A stretch of DNA of 64,000 nt from an uncultured Clostridium sp. (GTDB taxonomy: Bacteria > Bacillota > Clostridia > TANB77 > CAG-508), in the NCBI GenBank assembly GCA_946497695.1, contig CAMMLJ010000004.1, positions 1,793-65,792 on the forward strand, given 5' to 3'. A program made the translations under genes and the position numbers. Shown here one piece after another: positions 58,875 to 61,347 of this stretch; position 1 is the first letter of the stretch; each line of letters opens with the position of its first letter. Below the pieces are notes generated by a model that made no database searches, was not told the origin of the DNA, and was given only the letters and a program-made list of their open reading frames with translations.

Positions 58875-59111
58875 TTAATCTATTTTTTCAAACCTATGTT
58901 TTTGTCCAGTAATGTTGTCTGGTCTTTCAGGAATTTCTTCTAAAAACATTTTTTCAGGTCTAACCCAAATATAATTTCCATCTTCTCTTGGATATAAAGG
59001 TTTATATACAACCATTCTTTCTTTAGTTTCCGAATCACAAGCCACATTTTCTACAAAATAATAATTGCCTTTAAAATGACGATAAACTTTTCCAATTTCT
59101 ACATGGTTCAT
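58875..59111 (-). CDS. DUF1653-family protein
   Basis: 78 aa; YRHFKGNYYFV...ETKERMVVYKPLY...WVRPEKMF. Confidence 0.7.
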   Translation of the reverse strand: MNHVEIGKVYRHFKGNYYFVENVACDSETKERMVVYKPLYPREDGNYIWVRPEKMFLEEIPERPDNITGQKHRFEKID

Positions 59112-59180
59112 AAAAATACCTCCATTACATAAAATATATTCTAATAAATTGGACTAAAACAAGTACAATTTAATTTAGAC

Positions 59181-59420
59181 AAACAAAAATCGTCCTTATA
59201 TAAATATATAAGGACGAATATAATCCGCGGTGCCACCTTAAGTTATTATAAAAATAATACACTCAATTAGTAGGGTAACCGCCTAACTTACGGTTTAGTT
59301 TTCACTAAAAACATCTAAGAGTAGATTCACATATAAATTTTATTTACTTACACCACCCGTAAACTCTCTTAAAAAATTAAATATGTTACTATTCTCTTAT
59401 CAAACGTTTATATTAATATG
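59181..59420 (-). ncRNA. T-box leader (candidate Ser/UCU specifier) controlling DUF1653-serS
   Basis: Minus strand shows stem I AGAGA/GGTGGTG elements and GAA-TCT-A in the specifier position (UCU = 59323-59325). T-box AACTTAAGGTGGCACCGCGG (59225-59244). Terminator TCGTCCTTATATA/TATATAAGGACGA plus T-run. Confidence 0.75.
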
Positions 59421-59426
59421 TAACAC

Positions 59427-59455
59427 ATTTTAACATAATATGTATAAATATTCAA
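59427..59455 (-). promoter_or_regulatory. sigma-A type promoter of the T-box leader
   Basis: Minus strand reads TTGAAT, 17 nt, TG-extended TAAAAT. Confidence 0.55.
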
Positions 59456-59492
59456 TAAAAATTGTAAAAATTATTATATGAATTTGATAAGA

Positions 59493-59541
59493 GGGTTTTG
59501 GAACGTGCCATAGGGATTTGGGGACGTTGTTTAAATCCCTA
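59493..59541 (+). repeat. REP-like cluster (locus O): degenerate unit plus hairpin unit
   Basis: GGGTTTTGGAACGTGCC then TAGGGATTTGGGGACGTTGTTTAAATCCCTA. Confidence 0.85.
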
Positions 59542-59549
59542 TTTGATAC

Positions 59550-59578
59550 TTGGAAAGTTATGTTAAGTATGGTATAAT
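59550..59578 (+). promoter_or_regulatory. sigma-A type promoter of the two-gene orphan cassette
   Basis: TTGGAA, 17 nt, TG-extended TATAAT. Confidence 0.5.
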
Positions 59579-59616
59579 TAAGTGCAGAAAAAATTTTTAG
59601 AAGGAGGCTCAAAAGA

Positions 59617-59970
59617 ATGAGAGAGTTTAACAAAAAGAATAGCGAAAAGCTATTCTTGCTGAGGGTATGCTTACCTACAGTATATGAGGAAATTGGAGAT
59701 GAAGGAGTCGAGGCAGTCGAACAAGGCTGGGCGAAGGAACAAGATTATAAATTTATCAATGGTCTTGTTCAAAAGTATGTAGTCCAAGCTACAGAAGAGT
59801 TGCTTTATTTTGAGGGAAGTATGCAGGAGAAGATGGCATTAATCAGAACATTCAACTACTTCTTATATGCGTATGTTGAGAGAAAAAATTCAAAAACGCT
59901 GGAAGAACTTGAAGCAATTATTAAAGAATACTATGTAAATGTTAAAGATTCAGTCAAATTAGGAGGTTAA
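59617..59970 (+). CDS. hypothetical protein (117 aa), compositionally atypical
   Basis: RBS GAAGGAGG. Higher G+C than flanks. Its last codons (TTAGGAGGTTAA) provide the RBS of the next ORF. Confidence 0.6.
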   Translation: MREFNKKNSEKLFLLRVCLPTVYEEIGDEGVEAVEQGWAKEQDYKFINGLVQKYVVQATEELLYFEGSMQEKMALIRTFNYFLYAYVERKNSKTLEELEAIIKEYYVNVKDSVKLGG

Positions 59971-60558
59971 ATGCATATGTTTTTTAAAGACAGATTTGAC
60001 AAAATGACCCGCAAAGACTTGGAAGAAGAAATCCGTGTGTATAAGGATTTCTCCAAGTATACTCGGAAAGAGTTGGAGAAGGAATTAAGAGTTCTTCTTC
60101 CATATATTAATCTGAACGAATTTTCTGATCAGGAGTTGGAATATTTGTTAAGAAGCAATTATACTTTTTCTGAGTATAGCACAGATGAGCTTCGGGAAGA
60201 AGCAAGGAGACATGAACGCTTCGAAGAGTGGACCAGAGAAGAGCTCGAAGAAGATTATGAACAGTTAGAGAAAACTGAAGCAAACGTTGAAAAGTACAAG
60301 AATATAAGATGGATTCTTATAGCAGTGCTCTGTGCTTTTTTAGGATACTACTATGGAAGCATGAATACAAAGCTTGAATATCTCGAACAGAGGACCGAGC
60401 AACTTCAGCAGGAGCTTACTGTGATGGAACAGGAAAATAATCTGTTGGAAGACAAAGTTGATACTTTGTCAGATATAATAGATTTGATAATAATCTATAT
60501 AGCGTCTGATAATGTCGCACCTGGAGAAAACCCTGGAACATCAGCACAAATCATCTGA
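59971..60558 (+). CDS. hypothetical bitopic membrane protein (195 aa): five [YFW]-[ST]-x-x-E-L repeats, one TM helix, coiled coil
   Basis: Translationally coupled to the previous ORF (start 59971 or 59977). Repeats TRKDLEEE / TRKELEKE / SDQELEYL / STDELREE / TREELEED. TM IRWILIAVLCAFLGYYYGSM. Heptad-like LEYLEQRTEQLQQELTVMEQENNLLEDKV. TGA stop. Confidence 0.6.
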   Translation: MHMFFKDRFDKMTRKDLEEEIRVYKDFSKYTRKELEKELRVLLPYINLNEFSDQELEYLLRSNYTFSEYSTDELREEARRHERFEEWTREELEEDYEQLEKTEANVEKYKNIRWILIAVLCAFLGYYYGSMNTKLEYLEQRTEQLQQELTVMEQENNLLEDKVDTLSDIIDLIIIYIASDNVAPGENPGTSAQII

Positions 60559-60580
60559 AAACCAAAACTTCACATTTTTT

Positions 60581-60612
60581 CCCTTGGCGAAAGCCAGGGG
60601 TATTTCCTTTTT
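60581..60612 (+). terminator. intrinsic terminator after the cassette
   Basis: CCCTTGGC / GCCAGGGG stem, GAAA loop, T-rich tail. Confidence 0.6.
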
Positions 60613-60636
60613 ATAAAATAAAAAATTCATAAAAAA

Positions 60637-60650
60637 CGAAATTTTGTTTG
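60637..60650 (+). promoter_or_regulatory. candidate LexA operator (SOS box) overlapping the lexA -35
   Basis: CGAAATTTTGTTTG versus the Firmicute consensus CGAAC-N4-GTTCG (12 of 14; the GAAC..GTTT form is reported for clostridia). Confidence 0.5.
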
Positions 60651-60676
60651 ACAAACAAAAAATCATATGATAGTAT
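60648..60676 (+). promoter_or_regulatory. sigma-A type promoter of lexA
   Basis: TTGACA, 17 nt, TG-extended TAGTAT. Confidence 0.6.
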
Positions 60677-60705
60677 GTAAAAAAATAAAGTGGAGGCGTT
60701 AATAA

Positions 60706-61347
60706 GTGAAAAAAGATAAAAGCGATTTAAATAAAAGAGAAGTTGCAATTTTAAATTTTATATCAAAACAAATAAAAGTAAATCAATATCCACCATCAGT
60801 AAGAGAAATTTGTAAAGCAGTAGGATTAAATTCAACAGCAACAGTACATGGATATCTAGAAAAATTAGAACAAAAAGGATATATTAGAAAAGAATCACAA
60901 AAAGGTAGAGCTTTAAAAATTGTTAACGAAGATGATGTTATAAGAAAACCAAAAGATGTATATTCTGGAAAAGAATTAGTAGATGTACCAGTAGTAGGTA
61001 AAATAACTGCAGGTGCTCCAATTTTAGCAGTAGAAAATATAACAGATACTTTTCCAATTCCTTTAGACTTTGTTGGAAATTCAGAAAGTTTTATGCTAAC
61101 AGTAAGAGGAGAAAGTATGATAGAAGCAGGTATTTTAGATGGAGACTATATATTAGTAAAACAACAAAATACTGCAGAAAATGGCGAAATTGTTGTAGCT
61201 TTAATAGATGATGAAGCAACAGTAAAAACATTCTATAAAGAAAAAGATTATATAAGATTACAACCAGAAAATCGTACAATGGCACCAATAATAGTTCCAG
61301 ATTGTAAAATACTTGGTAAAGTTGCAGGCGTATTTAGAAAAATGTAG
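60706..61347 (+). CDS. lexA: SOS repressor LexA
   Basis: GTG start after GGAGG; wHTH N-domain ([32 protein letters not shown]), AG cleavage site (ITAGAP), S24 Ser/Lys (RGESM ... VKTF). Confidence 0.95.

What the first reader, a model, noticed from the sequence alone, without database searches (positions are those of the whole stretch)
59550..60612. Two-gene orphan cassette upstream of lexA encoding a repeat-bearing bitopic membrane protein with DivIC/FtsB-like architecture
The cassette is compositionally atypical. It has a good promoter (TTGGAA-17-TGgTATAAT) and translationally coupled ORFs (TTAGGAGGTTAAATG), and it ends with TGA and a terminator. It follows a REP hairpin, and a REP-tail-like ACATTTTTTCCCT precedes its terminator. 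ORF2 has five ~18-21-aa repeats of the form [YFW]-[ST]-[RD]-x-[ED]-L-E/R, a K/R-flanked TM helix (N-in), and then a heptad-like coiled coil (LEYLEQRTEQLQQELTVMEQENNLLEDKV). A short cytoplasmic part, a single TM helix and an external leucine zipper is the architecture of the divisome proteins DivIC, FtsB and FtsL. SOS-linked division inhibitors such as YneA and SosA are also small bitopic membrane proteins encoded next to lexA. I see no LexA box in front of the cassette, so an SOS link is speculative.
Basis: partly seen in the sequence, partly recalled or inferred. Interest (0 to 1): 0.65.

Follow-up and report, generated by a model that had tools for sequence, protein, structure and literature searches.

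The report
Variable membrane-protein gene pair beside lexA
Two real, co-expressed genes of unknown function (a small helical protein and a single-pass membrane protein with an outward leucine zipper) sit just upstream of lexA in one genus of uncultured gut Clostridia. They are not under SOS control and are not DivIC-family members, and they belong to a genome-wide set of odd-codon orphan genes that share one promoter type.

Summary
Positions 59550-60612 carry a sigma-A promoter with an extended -10, two translationally coupled ORFs (117 and 195 aa) and an intrinsic terminator, and a genuine REP hairpin lies just upstream. ORF2 has five capping-box helix repeats, one TM helix and a six-heptad zipper.

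"Orphan" is wrong. Both genes occur in 12 of 26 species of the genus ("Clostridium sp. CAG:354"-type MAGs), always between the serS T-box and lexA. They are under purifying selection (omega 0.15-0.47) but evolve about ten times faster than their flanks, with a mosaic recombination history.

No Pfam, NCBIfam, PADLOC, PHROG, PDB or BFVD relative exists. The real DivIC lies elsewhere in the genome, and ORF2 scores below the DivIC cut-off. A LexA matrix built from the recA, lexA, dinB and ruvA sites finds no box before the cassette. The lexA linkage is confined to one subclade of one genus.

New result: the promoter carries a conserved spacer box (TTATGTWAA-N-TGnTATAAT). In this genome and six relatives this box marks genes with abnormally high GC3, most of them orphans.

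Function is unresolved. My best reading is a zipper-dimerised membrane anchor that tethers ORF1, as one unit of an accessory, co-regulated gene set.

The parts
59491..59542 (+). REP element. The full hairpin copy is at 59510-59542 (ATAGGGATTTGGGGACGTTGTTTAAATCCCTAT), preceded by a degenerate half copy.
   Evidence: 195 genome copies of GGGATTTGGGGACG with up to 2 mismatches, and 79 copies of the 33-mer with up to 6 mismatches. It folds as a 13-bp hairpin.
59550..59578 (+). Sigma-A type promoter: -35 TTGGAA (59550-59555), 17-nt spacer, TG (59570-59571), -10 TATAAT (59573-59578).
   Evidence: Consensus scan gives 10 of 12 matches plus the TG. The sequence is nearly invariant across 11 orthologous loci whose coding regions are only 30-57% identical.
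59558..59566 (+). Conserved spacer box TTATGTTAA (class consensus TWATGTWAA).
   Evidence: Invariant in the orthologue alignment. Box plus extended -10 precedes 15 of 1779 ORFs in the genome, and 9 of those are in the top 3% for GC3 (Fisher 5.7e-11). The same holds in 6 other genomes of the genus.
59601..59607 (+). Shine-Dalgarno AAGGAGG for ORF1.
   Evidence: Read from the sequence. Conserved in the orthologues.
59617..59970 (+). ORF1, 117 aa, a soluble all-helical protein.
   Evidence: ORF list. 68-78 homologous clusters, all at this locus. AF2 gives pLDDT 91.7 and pTM 0.82 with six helices. No PDB or BFVD fold match. Omega about 0.2.
59635..59657 (.). 9-bp perfect inverted repeat AAGAATAGC-GAAAA-GCTATTCTT inside codons 7-14 of ORF1. 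On the minus strand it reads as a terminator-like hairpin followed by a T-run.
   Evidence: Terminator scan. The sequence is conserved in the orthologues (87% of cells paired) but shows no covariation. Its role is unknown.
59961..59973 (+). Coupling junction: AGGAGG (the SD for ORF2, inside the last ORF1 codons Leu-Gly-Gly), TAA stop, then the ATG of ORF2.
   Evidence: Read from the sequence. The C-terminal LGG of ORF1 is conserved in the orthologues.
59971..60558 (+). ORF2, 195 aa, a bitopic membrane protein. Cytoplasmic N-domain is residues 1-110 (59971-60300), TM helix 113-131 (60307-60363), zipper 135-177 (60373-60501) and tail 178-195 (60502-60555).
   Evidence: ORF list. 25 homologous clusters. 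A profile of the N-domain finds only 19 proteins among 1.84e9. AF2 model. Heptad register with a = L135, T142, L149, N156, V163, I170, I177 and d = L138, L145, M152, L159, L166, I173. Omega 0.17-0.36 in every segment.
60581..60612 (+). Intrinsic terminator CCCTTGGC-GAAA-GCCAGGGG followed by a T-rich tail.
60637..60676 (+). Context only: the lexA operator CGAAATTTTGTTTG overlapping the -35 of the lexA promoter. lexA itself is 60706-61347.
   Evidence: LexA matrix score 20.8, the only strong site in 59100-60720. Promoter scan. Pfam LexA_DNA_bind and Peptidase_S24.
59207..59412 (-). Context only: the T-box leader of the DUF1653-serS operon, which forms the left border of the insertion site.
   Evidence: Rfam RF00230, 110.5 bits.

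Best explanation
The cassette is a self-contained accessory expression unit, built like a phage 'moron': its own sigma-A promoter, two translationally coupled genes and its own terminator.

Shown: ORF2 has one TM helix preceded by about 110 charged residues with no signal peptide, so its N-terminus should lie in the cytoplasm. The helix continues outside the membrane as six canonical heptads with an Asn at a central 'a' position. ORF1 is a compact six-helix soluble protein made from the same mRNA by coupled translation.

Inferred: ORF2 forms a parallel, zipper-held dimer on the outer face of the membrane. Its cytoplasmic five-helix capping-box domain docks ORF1, so ORF1 is held at the membrane in roughly equal amounts.

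Regulation: the unit is not LexA-controlled. It is transcribed from a promoter with a conserved spacer box (TTATGTWAA). The box also marks a dispersed, genus-wide set of high-GC3, mostly orphan genes. This suggests (inferred) a common regulator for the set.

Biological role (weakest step): an accessory, strain-variable envelope function, more likely tied to conflict with phages or mobile elements, or to a lineage-specific programme, than to the SOS division checkpoint.
For: - Anatomy.
- Both genes are real and constrained: omega 0.15-0.47 pairwise and 0.17-0.36 per segment, against 0.03-0.05 for lexA and serS.
- Accessory and variable: present in 12 of 26 species of the genus and absent from the other genera of the family sampled. 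One relative has a tandem second copy and one has an in-frame stop. In five other species the same spot holds different small TM-coiled-coil genes.
- Mosaic history: ORF1 dS is 0.046 against one relative whose flanks show 0.31-0.33. Type II alleles are saturated while their flanks show 0.43-0.63.
- Promoter class: the box is invariant in the orthologues. Box plus extended -10 is linked to the top 3% of GC3 with Fisher 5.7e-11. In 6 other genomes the downstream ORFs have mean GC3 0.319, against 0.172 for neighbouring long ORFs.
- GC3 is not decaying: the implied equilibrium GC3 is 0.45-0.57 in the cassette against 0.19-0.29 in the flanks, on a crude majority-rule count.
- Hints of a link to phage or conflict genes: the best match to ORF2's TM-zipper within the genome is a 73-aa protein in a prophage lysis module, next to a holin and a lysozyme-like ORF of 384 aa (27 bits, against 12.7 bits for DivIC). 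There are also weak PHROG Rz-like hits. One gene of the same promoter class has a RelA/SpoT domain.
Against: - No homologue with a known function exists in any library or fold search.
- No relative was found in phage records or viral contigs, so a phage origin has no direct support.
- ORF1-ORF2 binding and ORF2 dimerisation are inferred from coupling and heptads only. No complex prediction or experiment was possible.
- The box could be a feature of promoter strength rather than an operator. No regulator was identified.
Confidence: 0.4

Rival explanations
1. An SOS-linked cell-division inhibitor analogous to YneA or SosA: a small bitopic membrane protein encoded next to lexA that blocks late divisome proteins after DNA damage, with ORF1 acting as a cytoplasmic antagonist.
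For: - Adjacent to lexA in every genome that carries the pair.
- Bitopic, with an essential-looking extracytoplasmic part and a conserved hydrophobic C-terminus. This recalls the CtpA-controlled C-terminus of SosA (PMC6851548).
- Lineage-restricted, like the known inhibitors, which are unrelated to one another (PMC13396833).
- Relatives carry further small TM-coiled-coil genes at the same spot.
Against: - No LexA box: the best score before ORF1 is below 5, against 10.8-21.9 for the sites the matrix was built from.
- Co-directional with lexA and separated from it by a terminator.
- A near-consensus promoter that looks constitutive.
- 195 aa with a large cytoplasmic domain and no LysM.
- Linkage is limited to one subclade of one genus.
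- Sister genes with the same promoter lie far from lexA.
Confidence: 0.08
2. A LexA-independent divisome-binding module: the TM-plus-zipper of ORF2 pairs with FtsL, DivIC or FtsW as a decoy or accessory subunit, and ORF1 modulates it from the cytoplasm.
For: - The same TM-then-zipper layout as DivIC, FtsB and FtsL.
- A weak DivIC profile alignment across the TM helix and coil.
Against: - The score is below the cut-off and no better than several chance coiled-coil hits in the same genome.
- Asn at the central 'a' position favours homodimerisation.
- The gene is dispensable: it is absent from 14 of 26 species.
- There is no linkage to division genes.
Confidence: 0.15
3. A dedicated anti-phage or exclusion module (Sie- or Abi-like) acting at the membrane.
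For: - The evolutionary pattern fits: presence or absence between species, deep allelic classes, recombination, duplication and a pseudogene.
- Moron-like unit structure.
- Weak similarity of the TM-zipper to a prophage lysis-module protein and to Rz-like PHROGs.
- One gene of the same promoter class has a RelA/SpoT domain.
Against: - No significant PADLOC hit: the best E-value is 0.038, well short of significance.
- No homologue in phages or viral contigs.
- The neighbours are housekeeping genes, not a defence island.
- Purifying rather than diversifying selection acts on the outer part.
Confidence: 0.2
4. Decaying foreign DNA with no current function.
For: Atypical GC3. One allele carries a stop codon.
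Against: - Omega is 0.15-0.47 across many lineages.
- The promoter, SD and coupling junction are conserved.
- There is no AT-ward decay of GC3.
- The ORF1 model is confident.
Confidence: 0.03

Closest known systems
DivIC / FtsB / FtsL (Pfam PF04977 and relatives)
   Same: A bitopic N-in membrane protein whose TM helix runs straight into an extracytoplasmic leucine zipper.
   Different: - Below the family cut-off (12.3-14.3 bits against 28.9).
- The genome has its own DivIC elsewhere (41.6 bits).
- ORF2 has a 110-aa cytoplasmic repeat domain and a co-translated soluble partner.
- It is dispensable, and it sits in no division gene cluster.
lexA-adjacent SOS division inhibitors: YneA (Bacillus/Listeria) and SosA (Staphylococcus)
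   Same: A bitopic membrane protein with an extracytoplasmic C-terminal part, encoded next to lexA and restricted to one lineage.
   Different: - YneA and SosA are SOS-induced (PMC6851548, PMC13396833); from memory, they are transcribed divergently from lexA.
- YneA carries a LysM domain, and SosA is 77 aa (same papers).
- Here there is no LexA box, the gene runs in the same direction as lexA behind a terminator, the protein is 195 aa, it has no LysM, and the outer part is a coiled coil.
Phage 'morons' (autonomous promoter-gene-terminator units of deviant composition)
   Same: A self-contained unit with its own promoter and terminator and a composition unlike its neighbours. It is inserted between conserved genes and is variably present.
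   Different: It is chromosomal, not in a prophage, and no phage homologue was found. It is one of a set that shares a specific promoter box across a whole genus.
Rz-type i-spanins and small TM-coiled-coil proteins of phage lysis cassettes
   Same: An N-terminal membrane anchor followed by an outward coiled coil. PHROG hits are weak (E 8e-4 to 0.03). A prophage lysis-module protein in the same genome matches at 27 bits.
   Different: The host has a single membrane. There is no o-spanin, holin or endolysin nearby. The similarity is confined to the TM helix and coil and may be compositional.

Membership tests
DivIC/FtsB (Pfam PF04977) | Score at or above the curated cut-off of 28.9 bits. | tested here: not met
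   12.3 bits, E 0.15. 14.3 bits in the six-frame genome search, ranked sixth among chance coiled-coil hits.
DivIC/FtsB (Pfam PF04977) | It is the genome's division-associated copy (near-universal and not dispensable). | tested here: not met
   A true DivIC lies at G000:C35:3510-3737 with 41.6 bits. ORF2 is absent from 14 of 26 species of the genus.
DivIC/FtsB/FtsL architecture | N-in, a single TM helix, and an extracytoplasmic leucine zipper directly after the TM helix. | tested here: met
   TM helix at 113-131. 12 of the 14 scanned a/d positions are L, I, V or M (13 fall within the zipper 135-177). One continuous helix 89-180 in the model.
SOS division inhibitors (YneA/SosA type) | A LexA operator at the promoter, giving SOS induction. 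| tested here: not met
   A matrix built from nine candidate sites, among them those upstream of lexA, recA, dinB and ruvA, finds only lexA's own box (score 20.8 at 60637). Nothing upstream of ORF1 exceeds 5.
SOS division inhibitors (YneA/SosA type) | Transcribed divergently from lexA and sharing its control region. | tested here: not met
   The cassette is on the same strand as lexA, with the terminator at 60581-60612 lying between it and the lexA promoter.
SOS division inhibitors (YneA/SosA type) | Overexpression blocks division, and turnover depends on a C-terminal protease. | not testable with these tools
   This needs expression in a laboratory host. Only a conserved hydrophobic C-terminus (..II) is seen.
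YneA | An extracellular LysM domain. | tested here: not met
   No LysM hit in Pfam at E up to 1.
Known anti-phage defence proteins (PADLOC-DB) | A significant match to a defence-system model. | tested here: not met
   The best E-value is 0.038 for ORF2, and ORF1 has no hit.
Rz-like i-spanin (PHROG 214, 739, 8821) | Significant profile match and a lysis-cassette context. | tested here: not met
   E 8e-4 to 0.027, over the TM helix and coil only. There is no holin or endolysin nearby.
Box-promoter / high-GC3 gene class of this genus (defined here) | TWATGTWAA-N(2-5)-TRnTAKAAT upstream and GC3 far above the genome mean. | tested here: met
   Promoter at 59558-59578. GC3 is 0.35 and 0.385 against 0.141.

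The most novel reading that the evidence does not exclude
The cassette may be one member of a genus-wide, co-regulated set of roughly 5-15 lineage-specific genes per genome. The set is marked by a promoter-spacer box (TTATGTWAA) and by GC-ending codons that the host otherwise avoids and that are not decaying. That would mean a dedicated regulator, and perhaps rare-codon gating of translation. On this reading the lexA-proximal site is a growing array of fast-evolving TM-zipper proteins belonging to that set.
Probability: 0.2. Interest if true: 0.75.

Novelty: new variant of a known kind. Interest (0 to 1): 0.45.

Why it matters
The cassette by itself is two new, genus-restricted protein families. 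ORF1 has a confident fold with no structural neighbour, and nothing is known about function. It also serves as a caution that lying next to lexA and having DivIC-like architecture does not make a gene an SOS checkpoint gene.

The wider point is the link found here between a specific promoter box and a maintained, host-atypical codon usage in dispersed orphan genes across a genus of abundant but uncultured human-gut Clostridia. If that set is a regulon, it gives a handle on what these orphan genes do and on how deviant codon usage can persist without amelioration.

Tried and rejected
- Family scans of both proteins (Pfam, NCBIfam, PADLOC, PHROGs) gave nothing significant.
- Foldseek of the ORF1 model against PDB and BFVD, and of the ORF2 model against PDB, gave no match with E below 0.5.
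- A profile of the ORF2 N-domain against 1.84e9 representative proteins returned 19 hits: 15 short proteins of at most 188 aa that score as family members, and four marginal ones (E 3.8e-6 to 7.9e-4), three of them longer repeat-bearing proteins. One of these, P0107 (410 aa), shows a similar 'MSDEEL...Y...SRxEL' unit, but at E 4e-4 and with no Pfam family.
- An ORF1 profile search returned only family members, all in the same synteny.
- Phage records and IMG/VR viral contigs hold no relative.
- LexA-box search. Canonical GAAC-N4-GTTC is almost absent from this 27% GC genome (2 sites). A relaxed regular expression is uninformative (224 hits). The matrix finds nothing at the cassette. A LexA-like 14-mer inside ORF2 (60113-60126) scores only 6.8 and was rejected.
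- The inverted copy of ATTATGTTAA at 59431 was rejected as chance: 24 copies seen in the genome against 55 expected.
- The promoter-like site at C16:3601 has no downstream ORF.
- The small TM-coiled-coil proteins of G009, G013 and G015 cannot be shown to be homologous to ORF2 (E 0.01-0.2, the same as DivIC), and G010's does not register at all. Only the 122-aa protein of G014 matches, at 1.6e-4.
- The hairpin in the 5' coding region of ORF1 is conserved in sequence but shows no covariation.
- No diversifying selection was seen in any ORF2 segment.
Full report
**Observation.**
- A sigma-A type promoter (TTGGAA, 17 nt, TG-n-TATAAT; 59550-59578) and an intrinsic terminator (stem 60581-60600, then a T-run) are found by the consensus scans. 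The terminator folds at -16.1 kcal/mol.
- ORF1 (59617-59970, 117 aa) ends in AGGAGGTTAA and is followed at once by the ATG of ORF2 (59971-60558, 195 aa).
- The unit lies between the T-box leader of a DUF1653-serS operon on the minus strand (RF00230, 110.5 bits) and lexA (Pfam LexA_DNA_bind and Peptidase_S24).
- G+C is 0.33-0.38 against 0.22-0.30 around it.
- The anomaly is concentrated at third codon positions. GC3 is 0.35 (ORF1) and 0.385 (ORF2), against 0.056 for lexA and 0.133 for serS. The genome mean is 0.141 +/- 0.042, which places both genes at the 99.2-99.6th percentile.
- The hairpin at 59510-59542 belongs to a dispersed REP family of about 195 copies.
- The supposed REP tail in front of the terminator is not supported.

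**Anatomy of the proteins.** ORF2 carries five copies of [YFWM][ST][RDT]x[ED]L[ERK], at residues 12, 30, 51, 69 and 87.
- The motif occurs only eight times in all ORFs of the genome, and five of those are here.
- In the AlphaFold model each copy starts a short helix (H14-22, 32-42, 53-63, 71-86, 89-). I therefore read the motif as a hydrophobic staple plus an S/T-x-x-E helix capping box. That reading rests on general knowledge.
- The N-domain is modelled with pLDDT 81-88.
- Residues 113-131 form the only TM helix. The 110 preceding residues are highly charged and lack a signal peptide, so an N-in topology is expected (inference).
- The helix continues outside the membrane as six heptads, and 12 of the 14 scanned a/d positions are L, I, V or M. 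The exceptions within the zipper are T142 and N156, both at 'a' positions.
- A central Asn at an 'a' position is the classical signature of a parallel dimeric zipper (general knowledge).
- The short tail ends in a conserved hydrophobic ..II.
- ORF1 is modelled with high confidence as a six-helix protein (pLDDT 91.7, pTM 0.82).
- ORF1's conserved C-terminal Leu-Gly-Gly coincides with the ribosome-binding site of ORF2.

**Not an orphan, but restricted to one genus.**
- ORF1 has 68-78 protein clusters and ORF2 has 25.
- Every context examined has the same order: serS, DUF1653, T-box, ORF1, ORF2, lexA.
- Record titles name the hosts as uncultured gut Clostridia of the 'Clostridium sp. CAG:354' type.
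- ORF2 is found in 12 of 26 species of the genus. In 35 genomes of other genera there is only one chance-level hit.
- A profile of the ORF2 N-domain finds 19 proteins among 1.84 billion representatives.
- There are no relatives in phage records or viral contigs.
- There are no paralogues of ORF1 or of the N-domain in the genome.

**Evolution.**
- LexA and SerS are 94-98% and 83-98% identical among cassette-bearing genomes. ORF1 ranges from 47 to 95% and ORF2 from 30 to 89%.
- Both genes are under purifying selection: omega is 0.15-0.47 pairwise. Per segment of ORF2 it is 0.17-0.36, and for ORF1 it is 0.20, against 0.03-0.05 for lexA and serS. They are therefore real genes under relaxed constraint, with no sign of diversifying selection on the outer part.
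- Synonymous divergence is mosaic. Against one relative, ORF1 has dS 0.046 while the flanks have 0.31-0.33. Against a second allelic class, ORF1 has dS above 1 and ORF2 is saturated while the flanks show 0.43-0.63. This indicates allele exchange by recombination between the conserved flanks.
- One relative has a second, diverged copy of the pair in tandem. One has an in-frame stop in ORF2.
- Relatives L100 and L099 carry further small, very GC-rich TM-coiled-coil genes between the pair (or an ORF1-like gene alone, in L099) and lexA, each behind its own copy of the promoter.
- Five species without the pair have a different small TM-coiled-coil gene at the spot. Only one of these is detectably related to ORF2.
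- In deeper-branching species of the genus the serS-lexA gap, where both genes lie on the fetched stretch, holds no pair and no TM-coiled-coil gene (some gaps are only about 130-390 bp, others carry unrelated small ORFs).
- In other genera of the family lexA usually follows obg.

- DivIC family. ORF2 scores 12.3-14.3 bits against a cut-off of 28.9, no better than several coiled-coil proteins in the same genome. A true DivIC (41.6 bits) lies on contig C35. The architecture matches, but membership fails.
- SOS control. I built a LexA matrix from nine sites upstream of lexA, recA, dinB, ruvA and others. In 59100-60720 only lexA's own operator at 60637 scores well (20.8). Nothing upstream of ORF1 exceeds 5.
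- The cassette runs in the same direction as lexA and is separated from it by a terminator. SosA and YneA are SOS-induced; from memory, their genes are divergent from lexA. YneA also needs a LysM domain (PMC13396833), which ORF2 lacks.
- The SOS reading is not excluded, but it has lost its specific support.

**A new lead: a promoter class.**
- The cassette promoter is almost invariant across 11 orthologous loci, including the spacer TTATGTTAA, although the coding regions are only 30-57% identical.
- The extra cassettes of relatives have the same box in the form TTATGTAAA-N3-TGnTATAAT.
- I searched the window's own genome with a pattern derived only from these lexA-locus promoters. It gave nine sites. 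Seven have a downstream ORF, and all seven are among the highest-GC3 ORFs of the genome.
- With a slightly looser pattern, 15 of 1779 ORFs carry box plus extended -10. Nine of them are in the top 3% of GC3 (Fisher 5.7e-11). Median GC3 is 0.335 with the box and 0.137 without.
- In six other genomes of the genus, including deep branches, there are 5-10 sites per genome against 1-3 for the reversed control pattern. The 26 downstream ORFs have mean GC3 0.319, against 0.172 for long ORFs nearby.
- The units have the same build: promoter, strong SD, ORF, GC-rich terminator.
- Among the eight high-GC3 proteins from this genome that I scanned, only one has a Pfam family (RelA_SpoT); that gene carries the box.
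- Only the box and the -10 region are shared between units, not longer DNA. This looks like a functional promoter element rather than a mobile sequence.
- A crude polarised count suggests that GC3 in the cassette is not decaying toward the genomic value. The implied equilibrium is 0.45-0.57, against 0.19-0.29 for the flanks.

**Hints about the role.**
- The best match in the genome to the TM-zipper half of ORF2 is a 73-aa protein in a prophage lysis module, just upstream of a holin and a 384-aa ORF that reads like a lysozyme (my reading of its sequence, not scanned). It scores 27 bits, against 12.7 for DivIC.
- ORF2 and one of the relatives' small proteins give weak hits to Rz-like PHROGs.
- These hits cover only the TM helix and the coil, so they may be compositional.

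**Conclusion.** The finding is a real feature, and its anatomy was described correctly. It is best described as a genus-restricted, fast-evolving, recombining accessory unit that encodes a zipper-dimerised membrane anchor and a co-translated soluble partner. It is one member of a promoter-defined class of high-GC3 orphan genes. The physical model (N-in dimer tethering ORF1) is inferred, and the biological role remains open. The DivIC and SOS-inhibitor analogy is an architectural resemblance without family membership or regulatory support.

Noticed in passing
Genome-wide. In the window: 59558-59578. Elsewhere: G000 C28:3168(-), C2:77267(+), C23:11877(-), C3:95604(+), C22:15440(-), C2:21310(-), C46, C20, C3:36637-37767.: A promoter with the spacer box TWATGTWAA plus an extended -10 marks ORFs with very high GC3, most of them without a known family. 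The association has Fisher p 5.7e-11 in this genome and is reproduced in six other genomes of the genus. No regulator was identified.
   Followed up: partly
G000:C27:11059-12974 (outside the window): A prophage lysis module: a 73-aa TM-coiled-coil protein, a 96-aa TM-coiled-coil protein, an 84-aa holin (phrog_1299, E 2.4e-7) and a 384-aa ORF that reads like a GH25 lysozyme (not scanned). The 73-aa protein is the best match in the genome to ORF2's TM-zipper (27 bits).
   Followed up: partly
L100:4939-6031 and L099:1108-2098 (relatives): The lexA-proximal site in relatives is an array. Extra small TM-coiled-coil genes lie there, some with strikingly GC-rich codons, and each has its own copy of the box promoter and a long 5' leader with a conserved hairpin.
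   Followed up: partly
window 59635-59657: A perfect 9-bp inverted repeat lies inside codons 7-14 of ORF1 and is conserved at the nucleotide level between allelic classes. On the minus strand it looks like an intrinsic terminator. Minus-strand promoter-like sites lie at 59772-59744 and 59945-59917, so a cis-antisense RNA is conceivable. No covariation was seen.
   Followed up: partly
window 58875-59111 (-): The DUF1653 gene between the T-box and serS occurs in two allelic classes (about 76% and 93-99% identity to the window's copy), with dS 0.5-0.6 and 0.31-0.33 respectively. The recombination mosaic therefore extends to the left of the cassette.
   Followed up: no
G000 C1:3091 (recA), C3:17992 (dinB-like), C31:15107 (ruvA), C3:38367, C5:4578/4645, C2:73500, C20:10591: Candidate LexA regulon sites of the form [CTA]GAA[AC]-N4-GTT[TC][GT]. 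Besides recA, dinB and ruvA they precede a 127-aa ORF that looks nuclease-like, a 225-aa DUF45-like ORF and a 236-aa MazG-like ORF. These gene names are my reading of the sequences and were not scanned.
   Followed up: partly
G009:C47, G013:C31 and G014:C43 (relatives): Three MAG contigs end within about 0.7-0.8 kb upstream of lexA, inside the variable site. This fits strain heterogeneity breaking the assemblies there.
   Followed up: no
G000:C3:95662-96627: A 321-aa single-gene unit with a RelA_SpoT domain (Pfam E 3.3e-12), GC3 0.37 and the box promoter. It may be a small alarmone synthetase or a toxSAS-like gene.
   Followed up: no
L077 and L085 (another genus of the family): A 68-aa C-terminally anchored membrane protein lies directly upstream of lexA on the same strand. 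It is unrelated in sequence to ORF2.
   Followed up: no
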